Source: an uncultured Thermoanaerobaculia bacterium (GTDB taxonomy: Bacteria; Acidobacteriota; Thermoanaerobaculia; Multivoradales; Multivoraceae). Taken from it: a stretch of 64,000 bases of DNA. Under the pieces are notes generated by a model that did not search any database, was not told the origin of the DNA, and worked only from the letters and a program-made list of their open reading frames with translations. The translations under genes and the position numbers were made by a program. The stretch spans positions 3,198,859 through 3,262,858 of the forward strand of contig OX638294.1 of NCBI GenBank assembly GCA_951812325.1. Direction: 5' to 3'. Of this stretch, positions 6,965-15,021 are shown in pieces; within the stretch, counting starts at the first letter, position 1; the number at the start of each line of letters is the position of its first letter.

Positions 6965-7034
6965 TGCGCGGCATGGGCGTCGGAAGCGCCCGTCCGCGTC
7001 CGGTCACACAAGCGCGCCGCAGCTCTGCCAGAGA

Positions 7035-7051
7035 GTCCCATGAGTGAAGCC
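7035..7051. repeat. Left arm of a 17-bp perfect inverted repeat (gtcccatgagtgaagcc) covering the CDGSH start codon
   Basis: Exact reverse complement of 7635-7651, read directly from the sequence. Confidence 0.8.
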
Positions 7052-7279
7052 CGTATAGCTGAGCGTGTTCCGGCCAAGATCGAACTCGAAGCCGGCGCCT
7101 ACTGGTGGTGCCGGTGCGGCGAGTCGAAGAACCAACCGTTCTGCGATGGATCCCATCGCGGTACGGACTTTGAGCCGATGCGGCTGACGTTGGAGGAGGA
7201 CCGCCGGGTCGCGCTCTGCCAGTGCAAGCGGAGCGACAAGATGCCGCACTGCGACGGCAGCCACAGGTTCCTGGACTGA
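7040..7279 (+). CDS. CDGSH iron-sulfur domain protein (two CDGSH motifs)
   Basis: 79 aa with WWCRCGESKNQPFCDGSH and CQCKRSDKMPHCDGSH. The start codon is embedded in the left arm of a 17-bp inverted repeat. Confidence 0.75.
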   Translation: MSEARIAERVPAKIELEAGAYWWCRCGESKNQPFCDGSHRGTDFEPMRLTLEEDRRVALCQCKRSDKMPHCDGSHRFLD

Positions 7280-7309
7280 GTCGTCTCGGATAGACCGGGA
7301 CACGCCAGC

Positions 7310-7630
7310 ATGCCAGACTGTCTCTCTCATGCGATACGGAAGGCTCGAATGACGACGGAGAGTTCGATGTTGCACGTCCGGATGGACGCCGAGATGAAGC
7401 GGAAGGCGACGGCAGCGCTCGCAGCGATGGGACTGACGGCTTCGGAGGCCGTGCGGCTGTTGTTTCACCGCATCGCCGTCGATCAGGCCTTCCCGCTCGA
7501 GCTCAAGGTGCCGAACGCGCGGACCCGCCACGCCATGGCCGAGGTGGACGAGATGGTGGAGAAGCGCAGCGCGCGGTTCGCCAGCGCGGACGAGGTGTCT
7601 GCGGAGCTTGAAAAAGCCAGCGTCCGCTAG
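7310..7630 (+). CDS. RelB/DinJ-family type II antitoxin (orphan)
   Basis: MKRKATAALAAMGLTASEAVRLLFHRIAVDQAFPLELKVPNARTRHAM resembles DinJ. The true start is probably Met14 (about 7349). No RelE/YafQ-like toxin ORF follows. Confidence 0.65.
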   Translation: MPDCLSHAIRKARMTTESSMLHVRMDAEMKRKATAALAAMGLTASEAVRLLFHRIAVDQAFPLELKVPNARTRHAMAEVDEMVEKRSARFASADEVSAELEKASVR

Positions 7631-7634
7631 AGCT

Positions 7635-7651
7635 GGCTTCACTCATGGGAC
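7635..7651. repeat. Right arm of the 17-bp inverted repeat (ggcttcactcatgggac), also part of a local hairpin after the dinJ stop
   Basis: Reverse complement of 7035-7051. Locally agctgg...ccagct forms a 6-7 bp stem-loop right after the dinJ stop, followed by a T-containing tract. Confidence 0.8.
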
Positions 7652-7721
7652 CAGCTCCTCTGTCTATTCGAACAGTTCCGCGTGCGTGCCTGCACGCGCC
7701 AAGTAGATGGACCAGTGCCGC

Positions 7722-7868
7722 ATGAGCGACCCTAACTGGAAGAACCGCACTCTCCGGACGGGGCGCGACAATCTTGAAGTCATGCGTGGCCTGAACTCCG
7801 AGTCGGTGGACCTCATCTACCTTGACCGGGGACTAAGTCTCAGGCGCAATTCCTGCGCGAACGCATGA
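7722..7868 (+). pseudogene. 5' fragment of a beta-class N6/N4 DNA methyltransferase (about 33 conserved N-terminal residues, no DPPY motif)
   Basis: My translation MSDPNWKNRTLRTGRDNLEVMRGLNSESVDLIYLD matches the N-termini of CcrM-like N6_N4 MTases (xxGDCLExMxxLPxxSVDLIFADPPY). The ORF then degenerates (RGLSLRRNSCANA*) and stops after 48 codons. Confidence 0.55.
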
Positions 7869-7977
7869 GTCTGCAAAGCACGGTCACTTCCTGGCTGGGG
7901 AGTGGATGAAGAAGAACCTGTAGGCCGTCCTCGAGACCAAGACGGACATCTTCGACAGCGGGACGCGCTCGCGCATC

Positions 7978-8403
7978 ATGGCGAGAGTCCGGAACCGGAA
8001 CACTGGGCCGGAGTTGATCCTGCGCCGGGCGCTCCACGCCCGCGGGCTGCGGTACAAGCTACACGATTCCGCGCTTCCCGGTCGGCCGGATCTCGTCTTT
8101 CCTCGTTTCGGAGCGGTTTGCTTCATGCACGGCTGTTTCTGGCATCGCCACGAAGGCTGTCGCCGCGCGACGACACCGGCGACCAACAGGAGTTCTTGGG
8201 AGCGGAAGTTCGCGGCAAATGTTCGGCGTGACCGGAAGAACCGGATGGCACTGCTTGAGGCCGGCTGGCGTGTCGGGGTGGTCTGGGAGTGCGCTCTACG
8301 CCCCAAGGAGCGCTTGGAGGCGGTGGCAGCGAGTGTTGAGGGATGGCTGAAGGGACAGCGCAAGGAGTTCACAGCCGGTCGCCGGCAGGCTGGCGGGTCA
8401 TAG
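7978..8403 (+). CDS. vsr: Very-short-patch repair endonuclease Vsr
   Basis: 141 aa. LPGRPDLVF...CFMHGCFWHRHEGC...WERKFAANVRRDRKNRMALLEAGWRVGVVWECAL aligns with E. coli Vsr. The D51, H64, H69 and E25 equivalents are present. Confidence 0.85.
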   Translation: MARVRNRNTGPELILRRALHARGLRYKLHDSALPGRPDLVFPRFGAVCFMHGCFWHRHEGCRRATTPATNRSSWERKFAANVRRDRKNRMALLEAGWRVGVVWECALRPKERLEAVAASVEGWLKGQRKEFTAGRRQAGGS

Positions 8404-9576
8404 CCATGCTGGAAGTGCGAGCGGAAGGGCTGAAGACGCGATAGGTAGTGCGGGTAGGCCGTTCCTGGCTCGGGATGGTACGAGGTCGTCGGCGCTGCTT
8501 CTGGCGAGTCCATGCGAGATAAGGTTCCACTTCTTCTTCCCGAGGCATGCCGGCGGTTTCTTCTCAAGTCCCTCAGTCAGCATGTTCAGGACCTCAGGTA
8601 CCTTGGCTTTACGGTCTTCAAAGAACTCCACATGATCGTCTGCGAAGCGGTCGCTCAACCAATGCTTGATTGCGTCGATTCCTGCGGGACACGTTTTGTC
8701 GACTGCGTCGTCCATGATACCGCGAAGTTCGCTGGCGATCTGCCCCACCATGTGCTGTTCTGAATCCGAAGGCTGCGGAAGACATGCGCGGTGCGCAAGA
8801 AAGGCTGGATCAAGGTCCGGTCCGAAGTGTTCCAGTACCCGGTATACGTTCTCCCGGACGGCGGCGAGAGCAGTGAGAACGAGGCTGGGCAGGAGTCCCT
8901 GGGCCATTTCGGCGACGTCGGCGATGAGCCGCTCGGCCAACTCTTCTTCGTTCACAACCGTGTTCAGGGCGTCGGCGCCGGAGCCGGGCTTCCCGTAGAC
9001 GACGATCCGGCACGCTCCGAAGTCGATGCGACCATGGTCGTCTGTCGTCCGAGTCGTTCCATGGGGTGCGTCCAGGTCGTTAAGGCGTTCGGAAATTCGT
9101 CTGCGAATGTCCTGGCGGTCGGGCTCGCCGGTGTAGAACGCGATCAAGCGAAGCCGAGCGGGCTGATCTGCCCGCAGGATACGCTTTAGCAGTGGCAATG
9201 CGGTCGCGCCGCTGGTTCGGCTCAGCCGCCAGTCCAAAATGACGATGTCCGCACGAGCGATGGCTTTGACGAGAGCCTCAAGGTCGTCTTGGTCTCGCGG
9301 GGGCAGTACTACGCCGCAGACCATCCCCTGGCGGGCAAACGACAAGGTGATGGGGTCAACCTTCAGGGGCCGGGACGGACCATGTTGCGGGGCGGCTTGG
9401 GCCGGTGCTTGGCTCGAGGCGCGCTGGTCGGGTGGGGTCAGCCCGCCGTGGACCGGCGTCTCTGCCGGGGCGGAGAGCTCGTCGTCAACGACCACCGCTG
9501 TCAGCAGGAAGCGCCGGACGATCTCTTCACAGTGCTCGCCAAGCGCGTTCGCTTCCGGGGAGCTAGGGTTGGTCAT
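8398..9576 (-). CDS. Receiver (REC) domain protein with about 260-aa C-terminal domain of unknown function
   Basis: Start moved to internal ATG (MTNPSS...), which has an AAGGG ribosome-binding site (RBS) 8 nt upstream and overlaps the last 4 codons of the upstream kinase gene. REC-like motifs: AVVVDDE, ADIVILDWRL (phospho-acceptor Asp), LIAFYTGEP, VVYGKPG. The 3' end overlaps vsr tail-to-tail by 6 nt. Confidence 0.7.
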   Translation of the reverse strand: MTNPSSPEANALGEHCEEIVRRFLLTAVVVDDELSAPAETPVHGGLTPPDQRASSQAPAQAAPQHGPSRPLKVDPITLSFARQGMVCGVVLPPRDQDDLEALVKAIARADIVILDWRLSRTSGATALPLLKRILRADQPARLRLIAFYTGEPDRQDIRRRISERLNDLDAPHGTTRTTDDHGRIDFGACRIVVYGKPGSGADALNTVVNEEELAERLIADVAEMAQGLLPSLVLTALAAVRENVYRVLEHFGPDLDPAFLAHRACLPQPSDSEQHMVGQIASELRGIMDDAVDKTCPAGIDAIKHWLSDRFADDHVEFFEDRKAKVPEVLNMLTEGLEKKPPACLGKKKWNLISHGLARSSADDLVPSRARNGLPALPIASSALPLALPAWL

Positions 9577-12544
9577 CGGTGTCGCCCTTCCGGTCCTTGA
9601 TCGGCGCGATAGCGAACGTCGTGCTCCACTTCGATCCGCGCTCCTCGAGCGCCAGGCCGTAACCAATCTCACGCAGCGTCGCGCGTGCGATGTGCAGCCC
9701 CATGCCGCGGCCCTCCGGCTTTCTGGTGAACCCGATATCGAAGACTTCGTCCCGGTCCCGGGCGTGAATGCCGGGTCCCGTGTCCGAGACGCGGAACGTC
9801 TTCCCGGACCTGTCGAGCTGGATTCGGCGCTCAAGCCGCTCGTTCAAACCCGAGAGCCAGTAGATCGCGTTGTCCACGAGATTGATGAACACAGGATAGA
9901 AGGAAGACGGATAGCCGCGCACGGCCGCGCTGGCGAAGGCGTCGGTCCGGGTCAACTCAACGTGGTGTCTGGCCAGTCGCTGGCCAAAGAGGTTGATCAG
10001 AAAATCGTGAATCTCCCACCCGCGAATGTCCACGGCTTTGCGGTAAAGTCTTCTTTGGAGCGGCGTAAATAGTGTCAGGTACGCGTCGAGATGATCGAAG
10101 CTGCCGCGAATCCCCTGATACAGCGACTTCAGTTCGCGATTCGCATCGGCCCAGGCCTTGAGGCCGCGCAGTCCCGATCGGACCGAACGGATGGCGGCGC
10201 CGAACTCGTGGCTGATGATCTCGATCGCCATGCCTAGCTGAGCGAGCTGAAGGTCGGCGGCAGCCTGTTCCTGGAGTGTGACGTTGCTCTGTTCCACGGC
10301 CTCAAGTTGATCGAGAAGCCAGGAGTCGGCCGTCAAATCGACGGCTTCCAGCTGCGAGCGAACGGCGTCGAGAGTTTTCTTTTCGGTCTCGAGCGCCTCG
10401 CGGATCGGAACTTCCAGATCGGAACGTACGGAAATCAGCTGCTGGTCGTCCAAGTCTGCAAGGTCGCGCCGGTCGAAATCGGCCATTCCGGCGCGAATGG
10501 CATCCTCGACATTCTGCACGCACCGCAGGGCCAGGCTGCGCACATCCTCCGAGATACTCTTCGCTCTCGCGTCTACTTCGCAACGACCCGCCTCCGTTTC
10601 TCTCCTGGCCGATTGACCCAGTTGGTTGAGAGCCGAGTCGATGCGTTCTCGGGCACTAACGTCGACGCCCGCCTTGGTCACTTCCTGCGTGACGACACTC
10701 TCAATGGACGTCCGGAGGTCTCGTATGCCGTCGGCAAGGTTCTGAAACGCTTCCCGGTAGTCGCCCCATTCCCGTTGCAAGGCGCGGCTCAAGCCGATAC
10801 GCGGCTTGGAAACCCGGTAACAGGTCTCCAGCTTCTCGAGATCTCTGCGGGCATTCCGTTCGATCTCTATGATTCGTCTGGCTGCTCGCCCGCGGTCCGT
10901 ATCGAGACTCGCCTCTTTCACTCGTTCCTCGGCCCCCAAGCCCAGTTCCATGGCGCTGTCAAGCGGCTTACTCGTCTCCATTCGCTGGAAGAAGGCCGCA
11001 AGGTCCTTCCTGAACTGGTCGCGCTTGGCGGTGACGGTTCTGGCGCGGGCACGCCTATGGCGCTCGATCTCGTCCAACTCGCGCTTGCGGCTCTTGAACC
11101 GTTCGCCGTACGCTCCCTCCTCCCGGAAGAAGTCGGCGGCCACCTGAACGAGGAAGCTCTTCAGAATGCTCCGCAGTTCACGGTAGGCCTTGTTCTGGCG
11201 GAAGCCCTCTCGCCCCGCCTTCTCGCGAAGACGTGAGTTGTTAACGGAGTCGACTTCAACCACGCCGAACATCTGTCGGTATGAGAAGTAGTAGTAGGAG
11301 GCGCTCTTGGTCCGCCGGAATTCGATTTTCAGCCAGTCGTAGTCGGTGGTCCCGTACGGTTGAATGCGCACGCCGTCCCGATAGATGTAGAGGCCCCCGA
11401 TGCGTCTCGTCTTCTCGAGCATTCGAGCATGCTCCGCCGGAGGAAGAGTGGAATGCCTGGATGCGCCCTCGATTGCGGCGAACCTGATATGGAACGGACC
11501 GCAGGCCGTGGGACGCCCTCTTCCGTCGCGCCAATTGATGACGTGGTCGCTCCTGGTCTCGCCGTAGATGGACACGCTGCCCTTGAACTGGCCATAAGCG
11601 TCGAATCTACCTGAGATCTGATGATCCGCGTTCTCGTAGTCGGAGCGAGTGAAGAACTCGTGCTCGCCGATGAGGTCCTCGCAGGCGCCATCCAGTCTGT
11701 GGTCGCGGAAAGCGGTGCGGATGATGGGCTCCGTGCCAGTCGCGAACGACGGAATGGTAAACCCCAGCAGTGCTTTCTGTAGCGGCGCCGCCGAACGGGA
11801 GGTCGCCTCCCCCGCCATGTCGTGGTCCAGGTCGGCCGATGCTGGCAGAAGGTAGAAGTGCGTACCGTGACCGCCGTCGAGGAGCGACGGCTGGCCCAGG
11901 TGTGCGGCGGTCGCCCGAGGATCAACGGCAAACGCTCCAAGGTCGCCCTTGATCCGGGCCCACTCCTCTTCGTCCATGCGTTTCTGAAGGCCTGCGTTCC
12001 TGTCGAGGAATGACTCCACCATCTCGGCTACGTCCTCGGCGTCGGGCAGGCTGCCTCCGGGAAGAGTGCGTAGCGGAATCCGGATGTCCTGGAGATTCAG
12101 TTCGGGACATTCGAAGACCCGCCAGTTGAGAAAGGCAGCCGTCAGGTCGGACAAGCCGTCGTCGCGAAGGGCGCGTGTGAGCACCAGGACTTGAGGAGCG
12201 ATCGTGGCGATGGCCAGGCGACCGATTCCCTTCTCCCCCAGAATGGGCCTTGCGCCTTGCAGCGGCTGGCGGCGTTGCCGCTCCGTGCGTTTCCGCCGAA
12301 TGCTGGTCTCCGTCGCGATGGTGAGCCATCGGTCGATGAACTCGTCGGTCTGCATGCCGAAGCCGTCGTCGCGCATCACGAACAGCCTGTCGCGGCGGTA
12401 GTAGTCAACTTCCACATGCCTGGCGTCCGCGTCGTGAGCGTTCTTGAACAGTTCGCTAATCGCGGTTGGGATGCCGGCGATCTGCTGTCTCCCCAGCATG
12501 TCCAGCGTTCTCGCCCGGGCCTTGAAGCTAACCTCCGTCGACAT
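9563..12544 (-). CDS. Dual GHKL protein: N-terminal MORC/Hsp90-like ATPase, long coiled-coil middle, C-terminal histidine kinase (HisKA H-box + HATPase_c)
   Basis: Start moved to Met50 (MSTEV...), whose ATG shares one nt with the MTase stop (TGATG). N-terminal ISELFKNAHDADA, RDDGFGM, GEKGIGRLA resemble HATPase_c_3. C-terminal H-box IEIISHEFGAAIRS, N-box FINLVDNAIYW, G1 RVSDTGPGI, G2 GRGMGLHIA. Confidence 0.75.
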   Translation of the reverse strand: MSTEVSFKARARTLDMLGRQQIAGIPTAISELFKNAHDADARHVEVDYYRRDRLFVMRDDGFGMQTDEFIDRWLTIATETSIRRKRTERQRRQPLQGARPILGEKGIGRLAIATIAPQVLVLTRALRDDGLSDLTAAFLNWRVFECPELNLQDIRIPLRTLPGGSLPDAEDVAEMVESFLDRNAGLQKRMDEEEWARIKGDLGAFAVDPRATAAHLGQPSLLDGGHGTHFYLLPASADLDHDMAGEATSRSAAPLQKALLGFTIPSFATGTEPIIRTAFRDHRLDGACEDLIGEHEFFTRSDYENADHQISGRFDAYGQFKGSVSIYGETRSDHVINWRDGRGRPTACGPFHIRFAAIEGASRHSTLPPAEHARMLEKTRRIGGLYIYRDGVRIQPYGTTDYDWLKIEFRRTKSASYYYFSYRQMFGVVEVDSVNNSRLREKAGREGFRQNKAYRELRSILKSFLVQVAADFFREEGAYGERFKSRKRELDEIERHRRARARTVTAKRDQFRKDLAAFFQRMETSKPLDSAMELGLGAEERVKEASLDTDRGRAARRIIEIERNARRDLEKLETCYRVSKPRIGLSRALQREWGDYREAFQNLADGIRDLRTSIESVVTQEVTKAGVDVSARERIDSALNQLGQSARRETEAGRCEVDARAKSISEDVRSLALRCVQNVEDAIRAGMADFDRRDLADLDDQQLISVRSDLEVPIREALETEKKTLDAVRSQLEAVDLTADSWLLDQLEAVEQSNVTLQEQAAADLQLAQLGMAIEIISHEFGAAIRSVRSGLRGLKAWADANRELKSLYQGIRGSFDHLDAYLTLFTPLQRRLYRKAVDIRGWEIHDFLINLFGQRLARHHVELTRTDAFASAAVRGYPSSFYPVFINLVDNAIYWLSGLNERLERRIQLDRSGKTFRVSDTGPGIHARDRDEVFDIGFTRKPEGRGMGLHIARATLREIGYGLALEERGSKWSTTFAIAPIKDRKGDTDDQP

Positions 12545-13647
12545 CAGCTCAAGCGTGCCTCGGCGAGGTGTCTGATGACGTGCTGTCCCACCAGGTTCGT
12601 CAACAGAGAAGGTACGGCGTTCCCAATCTGCCGGGCCATCGAGTTCAGATTGCCGCAGAGGTGAAAATCCATCGGAAATGTCTGAAGACACGCGGCTTCC
12701 CTGACGCTGATCGCACGATCCTGCTCAGGGTGCCCGAAGCGGCCGTTGGAATAGCTGATGCAACGCGTCGTGAGCCCGGAAGCCGGCCGGTCCCAAGACA
12801 TGCGACCGTAGACGTCGGTGTAGCCGGCAGTCTGCTTGTGGCATTCAAGACGAAGGGCCTCCGGCCAATCCCGGTGCCCGCCGCCCTCGGGGGTTGCCCG
12901 GATGCGCTCCAGATTGAGCTCGGACAGTCGAGCGGCGCGGTGGTCGCGGATTGCCGGGTGGGTCTCACCGGCGTCAATCCCCGGCAGGTCGCCTATCCAG
13001 TCGCGCACGGTGGAGAACTCGGGGTTGGCCGCGCCCGGCCCGTGGGTTTTGGGAGGGAGACCCACGGGTCCGTGGCGACTGGCGAGGAGCAGGAATCGGC
13101 GGCGACCCTGCGGCACTCCGTAGTGCTTCAAGGGCACTGAAGTGCAGGTCGGCTTGGGATAGCCCGCCTCCTCCAATCCCTGAAGGAAGTCGCTCAGCGG
13201 TTCAGATTCGGGGCACACATTCTGAATCCCCGGGACATTCTCCACGAAGACGACGTCCGGCTTGCATCTGCGGATGAAGCGCAGGAGCTCAAGAAGCAAG
13301 GGCACCCGTTCGTCTTCTGTGGGCTTGGGACGGCTGGTATTCTGCTTGGTGAAAGGCTGGCAGGGTGCGCATCCGCAGAACAGAATGGGGCGCGGTCGGT
13401 GTTCAACCACCAGCTCGTGGACGGAGCCTTCATCCACATCCCGAATGTCGCTGCGTTCGAAGACGGCCGCTGGGAAGTTGCGCCGGTAGGTTCGCTCGGC
13501 GTCGGCGTCACAATCGAGTCCGAACACGATCTCCATTCCGGCGTCTTGAAAACCGCGGCTGGCCCCGCCGCAACCGGAGAAGAAATCGAAGACCACCGCT
13601 CGCCGCCAAGCCGCGCCGTTCGTGTTGGGATCGTCGAGGGAATTCAT
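12544..13647 (-). CDS. DNA (cytosine-5)-methyltransferase (Dcm-like)
   Basis: 367 aa. Motif I VVFDFFSGCGGASRGF, motif IV GCAPCQPFT, motif VI VFVENVPG, motif VIII QGRRRFLL, motif X NAVPSLLTNLV. Confidence 0.9.
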   Translation of the reverse strand: MNSLDDPNTNGAAWRRAVVFDFFSGCGGASRGFQDAGMEIVFGLDCDADAERTYRRNFPAAVFERSDIRDVDEGSVHELVVEHRPRPILFCGCAPCQPFTKQNTSRPKPTEDERVPLLLELLRFIRRCKPDVVFVENVPGIQNVCPESEPLSDFLQGLEEAGYPKPTCTSVPLKHYGVPQGRRRFLLLASRHGPVGLPPKTHGPGAANPEFSTVRDWIGDLPGIDAGETHPAIRDHRAARLSELNLERIRATPEGGGHRDWPEALRLECHKQTAGYTDVYGRMSWDRPASGLTTRCISYSNGRFGHPEQDRAISVREAACLQTFPMDFHLCGNLNSMARQIGNAVPSLLTNLVGQHVIRHLAEARLS

Positions 13648-13764
13648 GGACGACTCGACTACTGCGAAGAGGTTCCAAGAGGCGGCGAAAGCCTAACAAA
13701 TCGCGACGGAAGCGGGCCTTCGGACGGACGTCCCATCGGCAGATCAGCGCAGGGGCGGAAACCG

Positions 13765-15021
13765 TTAACCTTCAACGATCTCCGCGTCATGCCCGCACCA
13801 CACGAGGCCTGACACGAGCTTCGGCAGGAAGCGGGTCGACTTGGGCGGCAGCAGGTCGCCGTCTTCGGTCGCGAGGGCGAACTGCTTCGGGGTCATCGGC
13901 GGCAGGAAGACGCCGGTGGTGACGGCGCCGCTTTGCAGCAGTTCGATGATGTCTTCCGGGTCGGCTTCGTAGGCGATGCTGCCGTCGGTGGCGGATTCGA
14001 TTGGGACGCCGGCGGTCGTCAGCAGGTGATGGTGGAGCAGGGAGGCCGGCAGGTCGGCCTTGCGTCCGGGCATGTCGGCGGGCGCGGCCGCGGCGTCGAG
14101 GGTCCACAGTTCGGGTGACGGGTCGCCCTGGAACCAGACGGCGAGGGCGGGCTGCGGCGCGGCCGCGACGCGGGCGGCGATGTCCTTGCCGGCGGTCGCT
14201 TCCAGGGTCTCGCGGCGCGCCGGCAGCGCGGACATCGCCTCGCGGTCGACCGGGACGCGGATGCCGCGGTGGACCGGGTCGATCCGGAGGTTCGCGGAGG
14301 CCAGGCTGGTGAGGACGACCATCTTGCACGCCGCGGCGGCGCCGCCCTTTGCCCCCTCCTCGGCGGCGTAGGTCTGGGCGACCTGGGTGCGATGATGGCC
14401 GTCGGCGATCGCGGCGCGGGCGCCCTTGAGCGCCGCGGCGTAGGCGCCGATCCGCTCGGGGTCGGTGATCCGGAAAAGGCTGTGGACGTCGCCGGTCCAC
14501 GGGTCGGTGTGACGGACCAGGGCGTCGCCCGCGGCGCCGCTTGAGTCTTCGCTCAGCAGGCGTTCCAGGACGCCGTCGTCCTCGGCGAGGTAGAACACGG
14601 GCTCGATGTCGATTTGCGTGAGCCGGAGCAGGGCCAGGCGCTCGGCGATCGACTTGGCGACCGTCTGTTCGTGGGGCCGGAGGTCCCCCTCGCGTCCCGG
14701 CTCGACGCCGACCAGGGCGCACAGGCCGAGGCGGCTCGAGCCGTCGGGCCGGGCGATCGCGTACGGGTAAAGCGAGGGAGTCTCGTCGCGCTCGACGACT
14801 CCGTTCTCCAGCCACTCCCGGTGGAGCGCGGCCGCGTGCTCGTGCGGCGTCTCGCCGTCACGCGCCACGGGCTTCGTCACCCGGGAGAACTGGTGCGGCG
14901 ACTGCGCGTGCAGGCGGTCGCGCAGGGTCTCGTCGATCTGGTCGAAGGGCGGCGCCGCCTGAGCTGCGGCATCGAGCCTGGCGGAGTTGTAGCGGTAGCC
15001 CTGGAAGGCGTAGAGCTTCAT
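13765..15021 (-). CDS. DUF1015 family protein
   Basis: 418 aa. N-terminus MKLYAFQGYRYN and conserved IADGHHR, typical of DUF1015. Confidence 0.7.
   Translation of the reverse strand: MKLYAFQGYRYNSARLDAAAQAAPPFDQIDETLRDRLHAQSPHQFSRVTKPVARDGETPHEHAAALHREWLENGVVERDETPSLYPYAIARPDGSSRLGLCALVGVEPGREGDLRPHEQTVAKSIAERLALLRLTQIDIEPVFYLAEDDGVLERLLSEDSSGAAGDALVRHTDPWTGDVHSLFRITDPERIGAYAAALKGARAAIADGHHRTQVAQTYAAEEGAKGGAAAACKMVVLTSLASANLRIDPVHRGIRVPVDREAMSALPARRETLEATAGKDIAARVAAAPQPALAVWFQGDPSPELWTLDAAAAPADMPGRKADLPASLLHHHLLTTAGVPIESATDGSIAYEADPEDIIELLQSGAVTTGVFLPPMTPKQFALATEDGDLLPPKSTRFLPKLVSGLVWCGHDAEIVEG

What the first reader, a model, noticed from the sequence alone, without database searches (positions are those of the whole stretch)
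8398..9576. REC-domain protein with uncharacterised C-terminal domain as putative effector; unusual overlaps on both ends
REC-like features DDE / ILDWRL / FYTGEP / YGKPG are present, but the beta4-beta5 spacing is long. The C-terminal ~260 aa (…HFGPDLDPAFLAHRACL…KHWLSDRFADDHVEFFEDRK…) has no motif I recognise. Its start codon lies inside the kinase's last codons and its stop overlaps the vsr stop on the opposite strand, which implies tight co-evolution of these genes.
Basis: partly seen in the sequence, partly recalled or inferred. Interest (0 to 1): 0.65.

Follow-up and report, generated by a model that had tools for sequence, protein, structure and literature searches.

The report
Truncated receiver gene, defence-like methylase cassette
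This gene is a shortened copy of a known receiver-domain protein (Pfam Response_reg_2) found in cytosine-methylase/kinase/Vsr cassettes; a deletion of about 565 bp removed its conserved end domain, so it is an ordinary decayed gene.

Summary
It matches Pfam PF19192 Response_reg_2 at E=5e-35, with DD31-32, D115, T149 and K196 all present.

It belongs to a cassette described in 2021 (Bellieny-Rabelo et al., GBE). The order is C5-methylase, then a paraMORC-type GHKL + HEF_HK histidine-kinase-like protein, then the RR-like protein, with a convergent vsr.

The window copy is not intact:
- All relatives are 520-552 aa; this one is 392 aa.
- Against the syntenic closest relative, about 565 bp are missing. 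That removes the last ~170 codons.
- Residues 364-392 are read-through of former intergenic DNA.

The 6-nt stop-stop overlap with vsr is therefore a by-product of the deletion. The closest relatives have 68-138 nt gaps there. The 14-nt start overlap with the kinase is ordinary, conserved translational coupling.

The lost domain, modelled from homologues (pLDDT 86), has MazF/PemK toxins as its best structural matches in two libraries. These matches are borderline (E about 0.004-0.01) and have no sequence support.

Best reading: an effector-less remnant of a methylation-linked, defence-like two-component system. The locus itself is of low interest. The possible toxin-fold output of the family is of moderate interest.

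The parts
8398..9576 (-). 3'-truncated RR-like gene (392 aa), a member of the Response_reg_2 family
   Evidence: ORF and translation. Pfam PF19192 at E=5e-35. All homologues are 520-552 aa.
8980..9510 (-). Receiver (REC) domain, residues 23-199. The phospho-acceptor Asp115 codon is at 9232-9234.
   Evidence: Pfam match 23-199 to model positions 1-178 of 180. D31, D32, D115, T149 and K196 are invariant in 62 homologues.
8488..8979 (-). Retained proximal, helical half of the family's conserved output module (residues 200-363)
   Evidence: Aligns to residues 200-367 of P0002 at 78% identity. Helical in the AF2 model, but pLDDT is below 50 for residues 231-300.
8398..8487 (-). Non-homologous tail (residues 364-392 plus stop), read-through of formerly intergenic DNA. 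The deletion junction lies at about 8476-8487.
   Evidence: blastn: L001 3857-9102 matches window 13715-8487, and L001 9668-10198 matches window 8475-7943. Junction alignment.
9563..12544 (-). Intact HK-like partner (993 aa from the ATG at 12544). Domains: paraMORC-type HATPase_c_3 (about 12167-12466), HEF_HK DHp with the H-E-F motif (about 10040-10240), and HATPase_c (about 9635-9907).
   Evidence: Pfam hits. 84% identical and the same length as the L001 orthologue. The N-terminus resembles BbrUII/HgiDII REases.
9563..9576 (-). 14-nt overlap of the HK stop with the RR start (ATGACCAACCCTAG)
   Evidence: An overlap is conserved in 23 of 26 relatives.
12544..13647 (-). C5 cytosine DNA methyltransferase (dcm-like), with a 1-nt overlap (TGATG) with the HK start
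   Evidence: Pfam PF00145 at E=5e-45. TIGR00675. 91% identical to the L001 orthologue.
7978..8403 (+). Convergent vsr (very-short-patch repair endonuclease), 141 aa. It is 13 aa shorter at the N-terminus than the L001 orthologue.
   Evidence: Pfam PF03852 and TIGR00632. Start-codon comparison.
8398..8403 (.). 6-nt convergent ORF overlap (adjacent stops, TCA|TAG) between the truncated RR and vsr
   Evidence: The closest relatives have gaps of 68-138 nt.

Best explanation
The gene is a decayed allele of the RR-like component of a four-gene cassette. The cassette has lower GC than its flanks and looks horizontally acquired. Its order is C5-methyltransferase, then a paraMORC-GHKL/HEF_HK kinase-like protein, then a Response_reg_2 protein, with a convergent vsr.

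**Shown.**
- A deletion of about 565 bp, measured against the closest syntenic relative, removed the last ~170 codons.
- The ORF now runs 29 codons into former intergenic DNA and stops next to the vsr stop.
- The receiver domain and all its catalytic residues are intact, as are the kinase and the methylase.

**Inferred mechanism of the intact system.**
1. The methylase marks self DNA, and Vsr repairs T:G mismatches left by 5mC deamination.
2. The GHKL/paraMORC module of the kinase senses a DNA or infection-related state.
3. The kinase autophosphorylates on the His of its H-E-F motif and passes the phosphate to Asp115 of the RR.
4. Phosphorylation releases the C-terminal output module. Its terminal domain has a MazF/PemK-like fold and probably acts as a toxic or nucleic-acid-targeting effector.

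**In this window.** The pathway ends in a receiver with no effector domain. The locus most likely works only as a methylase plus Vsr pair, with a crippled signalling arm.
For: **Family membership and context.**
- Searches give the domain hits and the published neighbourhood.
- The same ClpB-DUF1015-dcm-HK-RR-vsr synteny is present in L001.

**The truncation.**
- 120 of 120 best hits are longer, and the alignment to the window protein stops at about residue 360.
- blastn breakpoints are.
- No trace of RR residues 368-537 exists in any frame of the 64-kb window.
- RR lengths are 520-552 aa in 25 relatives.
- The middle plus C-terminal module is always matched as one unit at the end of roughly 520-600-aa proteins, and 1,740 clusters match the profile.

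**Decay is recurrent, and no short isoform is conserved.**
- Other short members break off at different points, so they are independent lesions.
- Cassette decay is seen in 5 of 27 species-representative loci.

**Partners and island.**
- HK and dcm are intact.
- The cassette is at GC 0.60-0.64 against 0.69-0.71 in the flanks.

**Fold of the lost domain.**
- The model has pLDDT 86 and pTM 0.80.
- The top 16 PDB Foldseek hits are all MazF, with prob about 1.0 and TM 0.55-0.63.
- The top BFVD hit is a PemK/MazF toxin, with TM 0.68 and rmsd 3.9 A.

**Functional precedents.**
- Detocs is a validated defensive two-component system whose RR carries a toxic effector (10.1101/2023.01.24.525353).
- The paraMORC3 protein VcSduA is a validated GHKL-regulated defence nuclease (PMC12137116).
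Against: - The retained part shows no extra decay. There are no frameshifts, all family-invariant residues are kept, and there is no RR-specific rate acceleration. Either the deletion is recent or the short protein is still under selection.
- The MazF-like assignment rests on borderline Foldseek E-values (0.004-0.01). It has no sequence-profile support. MazF's catalytic Arg and Thr are not evidently conserved.
- No experiment shows phosphotransfer, a defence role or toxicity for any member of this family.
- The deletion is inferred by comparison with relatives at 86% nucleotide identity, not from an ancestor of this genome. The source appears to be a metagenome-assembled genome, and the allele was seen on one contig only.
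Confidence: 0.8

Rival explanations
1. The short protein is a functional stand-alone receiver. Having lost its effector, it could still accept phosphate from the intact kinase. It would then act as a phosphate sink or buffer, or as a regulator through its helical region, analogous to DtcB of Detocs.
For: The REC residues and the 14-nt translational coupling are intact, and the kinase is intact. There is no excess substitution in the retained part. DtcB sets a precedent for effector-less receivers in a defensive two-component system.
Against: No conserved short isoform exists. Every other short member breaks at a different place. The output module is always found as one unit. The 29-aa tail is read-through of intergenic DNA. 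The allele is a singleton. A buffer has nothing to buffer when no effector-bearing RR is present in the locus.
Confidence: 0.12
2. One reading: an intact REC-effector protein whose novel ~260-aa C-terminal domain is the effector. Its overlaps with the kinase and with vsr reflect tight co-evolution of the three genes.
For: The region has no Pfam match. Both overlaps exist. RR-vsr adjacency is typical of the family. A 4-nt stop overlap occurs in four distant relatives.
Against: The protein lacks the last ~170 residues that all relatives have. The overlap with vsr is created by the deletion, and the closest relatives have gaps of 68-138 nt. The last 29 residues have no homologue.
Confidence: 0.04
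3. The deletion is an assembly or consensus artefact, or a minority variant, in a metagenome-assembled genome. The organism actually carries the full-length gene.
For: The protein was seen on a single 4.63-Mb contig only. The relatives are all MAGs. Several related MAG loci show frameshifted genes that could be sequencing errors.
Against: A clean 565-bp loss with 11 bp of filler is not a typical homopolymer or consensus error. No repeat flanks the junction that could collapse an assembly. The flanking genes are colinear and intact.
Confidence: 0.04

Closest known systems
Response_reg_2 / HEF_HK two-component-like system linked to type II R-M and paraMORC ATPases (Bellieny-Rabelo, Pretorius & Moleleki 2021, GBE; PMC8011034; Pfam PF19192 and PF19191)
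   Same: Both Pfam domains score far above threshold. The RR-like and HK-like genes are adjacent. The HK has an N-terminal HATPase_c_3. A C5-methylase lies upstream and vsr lies immediately downstream. This is exactly the modal neighbourhood described in the paper.
   Different: The window's RR lacks the last ~170 residues of the family architecture. The paper does not characterise the region after the REC domain. The MazF-like fold of its terminal domain is an inference made here.
Detocs defensive two-component system (DtcA/DtcB/DtcC; Rousset et al. 2023, 10.1101/2023.01.24.525353)
   Same: The logic is the same: a cytoplasmic kinase, plus a response regulator whose DNA-binding output is replaced by a (putatively) toxic effector, in a defence context.
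   Different: There is no sequence relationship: no PADLOC hit for the RR, and only REase_II N-terminal hits for the HK. The sensor is a GHKL/paraMORC module rather than TPR. There is no DtcB buffer gene. The effector is not a PNP nucleosidase. The system is linked to a methylase and Vsr. It is untested experimentally.
MazF/PemK/Kid endoribonuclease toxins (type II toxin-antitoxin systems)
   Same: These are the best structural matches for the family's terminal domain in both PDB and BFVD.
   Different: There is no sequence-profile similarity. The conserved motif is C-x-x-P-x-C-D-S-V-R...W-x-x-E-L-K...S-E-W-L-R-R, not the MazF catalytic Arg/Thr. The domain is fused to a REC and helical module rather than paired with an antitoxin gene. 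It is absent from the window copy.
BbrUII/HgiDII-family type II restriction enzymes and paraMORC3/Shedu type I-D (VcSduA)
   Same: The N-terminal GHKL (HATPase_c_3) module of the neighbouring HK-like protein resembles theirs (NF050001 E=7e-22, PDLC03419 E=1e-10). They are also associated with C5-methylase and Vsr. GHKL-controlled effectors are validated in defence.
   Different: Scores are far below the family cut-off (78 bits against 550). The nuclease part is replaced by a DHp + CA kinase module, and the effector sits on a separate RR protein.

Membership tests
Response_reg_2 RR-like family (PF19192) | Match to the PF19192 HMM above the gathering score | tested here: met
   121.7 bits against a cut-off of 27, E=5.1e-35, residues 23-199.
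Response_reg_2 RR-like family (PF19192) | REC catalytic residues: acidic pair after beta1, phospho-acceptor Asp after beta3, Thr after beta4, Lys after beta5 | tested here: met
   D31, D32, D115, T149 and K196 are present and invariant in 62 homologues. These are the criteria set out in PMC8011034.
Response_reg_2 RR-like family (PF19192) | Adjacent HEF_HK/GHKL kinase-like gene (91.6% linkage in the describing paper) | tested here: met
   The upstream gene has HATPase_c_3, HEF_HK (E=1.6e-27) and HATPase_c, with a 14-nt overlap.
Response_reg_2 RR-like family (PF19192) | Full architecture: REC followed by the ~350-aa conserved output module, 520-600 aa in total | tested here: not met
   The protein is 392 aa. 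Homology ends at residue 363, and the distal ~170 residues are absent from the whole window.
Canonical CheY-like response regulators (PF00072) with DNA-binding outputs (OmpR/LuxR/NtrC) | Match to PF00072, plus a recognised output domain such as Trans_reg_C, GerE or HTH_8 | tested here: not met
   The window protein has no PF00072 hit at E<=0.01. P0002 reaches only E=0.26. No DNA-binding domain hit was found in Pfam or NCBIfam.
MazF/PemK toxin superfamily (for the domain lost from the window copy) | MazF/CcdB-type beta-barrel fold | tested here: inconclusive
MazF/PemK toxin superfamily (for the domain lost from the window copy) | Sequence-profile match to PemK_toxin, and conserved catalytic Arg and Thr/Ser | tested here: not met
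   No Pfam hit at E<=10. hhalign probability is below 1% against MazF/Kid/ChpBK/EndoA.
Detocs | Matches to DtcA, DtcB and DtcC in a three-gene operon | tested here: not met
   PADLOC-DB (2023) has no hit for the RR, and only REase_II N-terminal hits for the HK. There is no stand-alone REC gene in the cassette. Whether that PADLOC release holds Detocs models was not checked.
Phosphorelay function (any two-component system) | His-to-Asp phosphotransfer between the two proteins | not testable with these tools
   Only the conserved His (H-E-F motif) and Asp115 can be shown. Biochemistry is needed.

The most novel reading that the evidence does not exclude
The Response_reg_2/HEF_HK cassettes, which number at least 1,740 protein clusters, may be methylation-linked defensive two-component systems. 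In this reading a paraMORC-type GHKL sensor-kinase phosphorylates a receiver that unleashes a MazF/PemK-fold toxin domain. The strongly conserved helical middle region might act as a built-in inhibitor. The window would then hold a natural allele in which the toxin part was deleted while the receiver, the inhibitor-like part, the kinase, the methylase and Vsr were kept. That is the pattern expected if the effector is costly.
Probability: 0.3. Interest if true: 0.6.

Novelty: new member of a known kind. Interest (0 to 1): 0.3.

Why it matters
For this window it matters little. The gene should be annotated as a truncated Response_reg_2-family gene or pseudogene inside a dcm/vsr cassette, not as a novel effector protein.

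The wider point is modest but real. The output module of this widespread, experimentally untouched family has never been described. A toxin-like fold at its end would make these cassettes a second, unrelated example, after Detocs, of two-component signalling used as an immune switch, here wired to DNA methylation. Recurrent decay of the cassette (5 of 27 related loci, plus this window) fits a costly defence element.

Tried and rejected
**Searches that found nothing.**
- Pfam, NCBIfam, PADLOC and PHROGs on the post-REC region returned nothing, apart from a sub-threshold iHD-CE hit. That hit had E 0.0015-0.009 and appeared in only 5 of 62 members, so it was not relied on.
- PDB sequence-profile searches with the full-length and C-terminal alignments found nothing.
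- hhalign of three versions of the C-terminal profile against MazF, Kid, ChpBK and EndoA gave no signal.
- Foldseek with the full-length model found only weak flavodoxin/CheY-like and MazF hits, because of the poor multi-domain model (pLDDT 69).

**Ideas considered and dropped.**
- PD-(D/E)xK nuclease for the lost domain (D416...E502-x-K504). The E and K are not invariant in diverse homologues (S/R and N/R occur), and no nuclease fold was hit.
- HEPN-like R-x-n-H in the middle region. The spacing is atypical and nothing supports it.
- Relaxed selection on the retained part. The relative-rate tests are not RR-specific.
- Repeats or microhomology at the breakpoint. Nothing convincing was found.
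- Avoidance of GTCGAC or other palindromes as a clue to the methylase target. It is uninformative in 64 kb.

**Look-ups that failed.**
- The exact look-up of the 392-aa protein's contig was not on record. The cluster look-up gave no names.
- The window's own genome was not among the species representatives. The closest relative is 'Candidatus Multivorans sp.'.

Full report
**1. What is at 8398-9576**

The minus-strand ORF starting at the ATG at 9576 encodes 392 aa. Pfam places residues 23-199 in PF19192 Response_reg_2 at E=5.1e-35.

- D31 and D32 after beta1
- the phospho-acceptor D115 in ILDWRL (codon at 9232-9234)
- T149 in FYTGEP
- K196 in YGKPG

All are invariant across 62 homologues. The long T149-K196 spacing and a ~40-residue disordered insert after beta1 are family traits. 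PF00072 itself does not match.

**2. Genomic context**

On the same strand, upstream genes are linked by overlapping stop and start codons:
- a C5 cytosine methyltransferase at 12544-13647
- a 993-aa kinase-like protein at 9563-12544

The kinase-like protein has an N-terminal paraMORC-type HATPase_c_3, a HEF_HK DHp domain (I-S-H-E-F) and a C-terminal HATPase_c. Its N-terminus resembles BbrUII/HgiDII-family restriction enzymes. A vsr gene converges on the RR gene at 7978-8403.

The four genes sit in a segment of GC 0.60-0.64, flanked by DNA of 0.69-0.71.

This is exactly the neighbourhood described by Bellieny-Rabelo et al. (2021, PMC8011034), who defined both Pfam domains. They reported 91.6% RR/HK linkage, C5-methylases upstream and Vsr most often immediately downstream. 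The full-text search found only two later papers naming these domains, neither on this family's biology (not read), so the system appears experimentally uncharacterised.

**3. The window copy is truncated**

The size and alignment evidence:
- Apart from the window's own 392-aa protein, the 119 other listed homologues are longer, and all but four (407-491 aa) are 523-631 aa.
- In alignments the window protein follows them only to about residue 360, then diverges.
- Measured RR lengths in 25 species-representative loci are 520-552 aa.

The closest relative, P0002 (78% identical, 537 aa), lies in a fully syntenic locus: ClpB-DUF1015-dcm-HK-RR-vsr. The blastn comparison of that locus with the window gives:
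- L001 3857-9102 matches window 13715-8487
- L001 9668-10198 matches window 8475-7943

So about 565 bp are missing from the window, replaced by about 11 bp. The missing piece is the last ~170 codons of the RR gene plus 53 nt of spacer.

A tblastn search finds no trace of RR residues 368-537 anywhere in the 64-kb window. Residues 364-392 of the annotated protein are therefore translation of what is intergenic DNA in the relative.

HK (84% identity, identical length) and dcm (91%) are intact.

**4. The two overlaps**

*Start overlap.* The 14-nt HK-stop/RR-start overlap is conserved. 23 of 26 relatives overlap by 1-32 nt, most often 11 or 14. This is ordinary translational coupling within an operon.

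*Stop overlap.* The 6-nt overlap with vsr is secondary. In the three closest relatives the convergent genes are separated by 68-138 nt. In the window, the truncated ORF simply runs through that spacer until a chance stop.

As a nuance, four more distant relatives (Gemmatimonadota-type MAGs) have a 4-nt stop-stop overlap between a full-length RR and vsr. The cassette is thus generally compact, and RR-vsr linkage is real at the family level.

**5. Is the short form a functional isoform?**

*Evidence against.*
- Other short family members (P0069, P0101, P0108, P0055) leave the consensus at different positions into unrelated tails. They are independent lesions, not a conserved architecture.
- A profile of the middle plus C-terminal region finds 1,740 cluster representatives. 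In the top 150 it is matched as a single unit at the C-terminal end of proteins of about 520-600 aa.
- Cassette decay is common among 27 species-representative loci:
  - HK split by an insertion (L003)
  - HK frameshifted (L014)
  - RR split by a 1.85-kb insertion (L022)
  - HK and dcm lost (L007, L027)

*Evidence for.*
- The retained part has no further damage.
- It shows no RR-specific rate acceleration.

So either the deletion is recent or a residual function is not excluded. I give the stand-alone-receiver reading about 0.12.

**6. What was lost**

The full-length AF2 model (pLDDT 69) shows three parts:
- the REC domain
- a helical middle region, highly conserved yet poorly modelled over residues 231-300
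- a beta-rich terminal domain

I modelled the terminal domain alone, using a natural C-terminal fragment and a diverse alignment. That model has pLDDT 86 and pTM 0.80.

The Foldseek results:
- Against PDB, MazF toxins fill the top 16 places, with prob about 1.0, TM (target-normalised) 0.55-0.63 and E 0.004-0.07.
- Against BFVD, the top hit is a phage PemK/MazF toxin, with TM 0.68, rmsd 3.9 A and E 0.011.

Sequence methods see nothing. The family's own invariant motif (C-x-x-P-x-C-D-S-V-R, W-x-x-E-L-K, S-E-W-L-R-R) does not reproduce MazF's catalytic residues. The fold resemblance is therefore a lead, not a membership.

**7. Mechanism**

*Shown.* Domain composition, conserved His and Asp, operon coupling, synteny and the deletion.

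*Inferred.* In intact cassettes the GHKL/paraMORC module senses a DNA or infection state. The kinase then phosphorylates D115, and this releases a toxic or nucleic-acid-targeting terminal domain. The methylase marks self DNA, and Vsr repairs 5mC deamination damage.

*Precedents.*
- Detocs is a validated defensive two-component system whose RR carries a toxic effector.
- The paraMORC3 protein VcSduA is a validated GHKL-regulated defence nuclease.
- Iyer et al. 2008 proposed that paraMORCs act in R-M systems.

In this window the signalling arm ends in an effector-less receiver. The likely working parts are the methylase and Vsr.

**8. Verdict**

The gene belongs to a known, named family in its typical context, and here it is a decayed copy. 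The unusual stop overlap is a deletion scar, and the unrecognised C-terminal domain is half of a conserved module plus 29 residues of read-through.

Novelty is a new (defective) member of a known kind. Interest in the locus is low. The one point worth carrying forward is the possible MazF-fold output domain of the Response_reg_2 family.

Noticed in passing
window 7900-7980 (vsr 5' end): The GTG start used by the L001 vsr orthologue is ACG in the window, and no alternative start precedes the ATG at 7978. The window's Vsr is therefore 13 aa shorter at the N-terminus and loses the T-R-S-R-I segment. It also carries 5 extra C-terminal residues. A paper cited in PMC2292703 (Monastiriakos 2004) reports that the Vsr N-terminus is needed for interaction with MutL.
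   Followed up: partly
window ~7000-13700: The dcm-HK-RR-vsr cassette is a lower-GC segment (0.60-0.64 against 0.69-0.71 in the flanks), consistent with horizontal acquisition. The same insertion site next to DUF1015/ClpB is shared with L001.
   Followed up: partly
L001 10831-11210, compared with window 13780-14159: The relative carries a second, partial copy (380 bp, 86% identical) of the 3' part of the DUF1015 gene downstream of vsr. This suggests a local duplication or rearrangement at the cassette border that the window lacks.
   Followed up: no
L003, L014, L022, L007, L027: Independent decay of the same cassette in other MAGs. HK is split by a ~1.5-kb insert (L003). HK is frameshifted (L014). 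RR is split by a ~1.85-kb insert (L022). HK and dcm are absent while RR and vsr are retained (L007, L027). The inserts were not identified.
   Followed up: partly
L012, L015, L019, L027 (RR/vsr junction): In these relatives the full-length RR and the convergent vsr share a 4-nt stop-stop overlap (CTAA or TTAA). This is a recurrent compact tail-to-tail arrangement in Gemmatimonadota-type relatives.
   Followed up: yes
P0002 residues 231-300 (window residues ~231-300, 8677-8886): This is the most strongly conserved stretch of the output module (LLPSLVLTALAAVRENVYRVL...DLDPAFLAHRACLP...SEQH.VEQIASEL). AlphaFold2 nevertheless models it with pLDDT below 50. It may fold only against a partner: the kinase, a dimer mate or the terminal domain.
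   Followed up: no
window 12540-12550: The dcm stop and the HK start share one base (TGATG). The HK ORF opens with ATGTCGAC, which contains a GTCGAC site, while the HK N-terminus resembles the GTCGAC-specific BbrUII/HgiDII enzymes. GTCGAC is not depleted in the window (68 observed, 70 expected), so this is probably coincidence.
   Followed up: yes
window 1-64000 (taxonomic origin): All close relatives come from metagenome-assembled genomes: 'Candidatus Multivorans', other Acidobacteriota, Longimicrobiales/Gemmatimonadota, Opitutales and Rhodothermales. The window probably comes from an uncultured Acidobacteriota genome related to Ca. Multivorans. Its own genome was not in the species-representative set.
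   Followed up: partly
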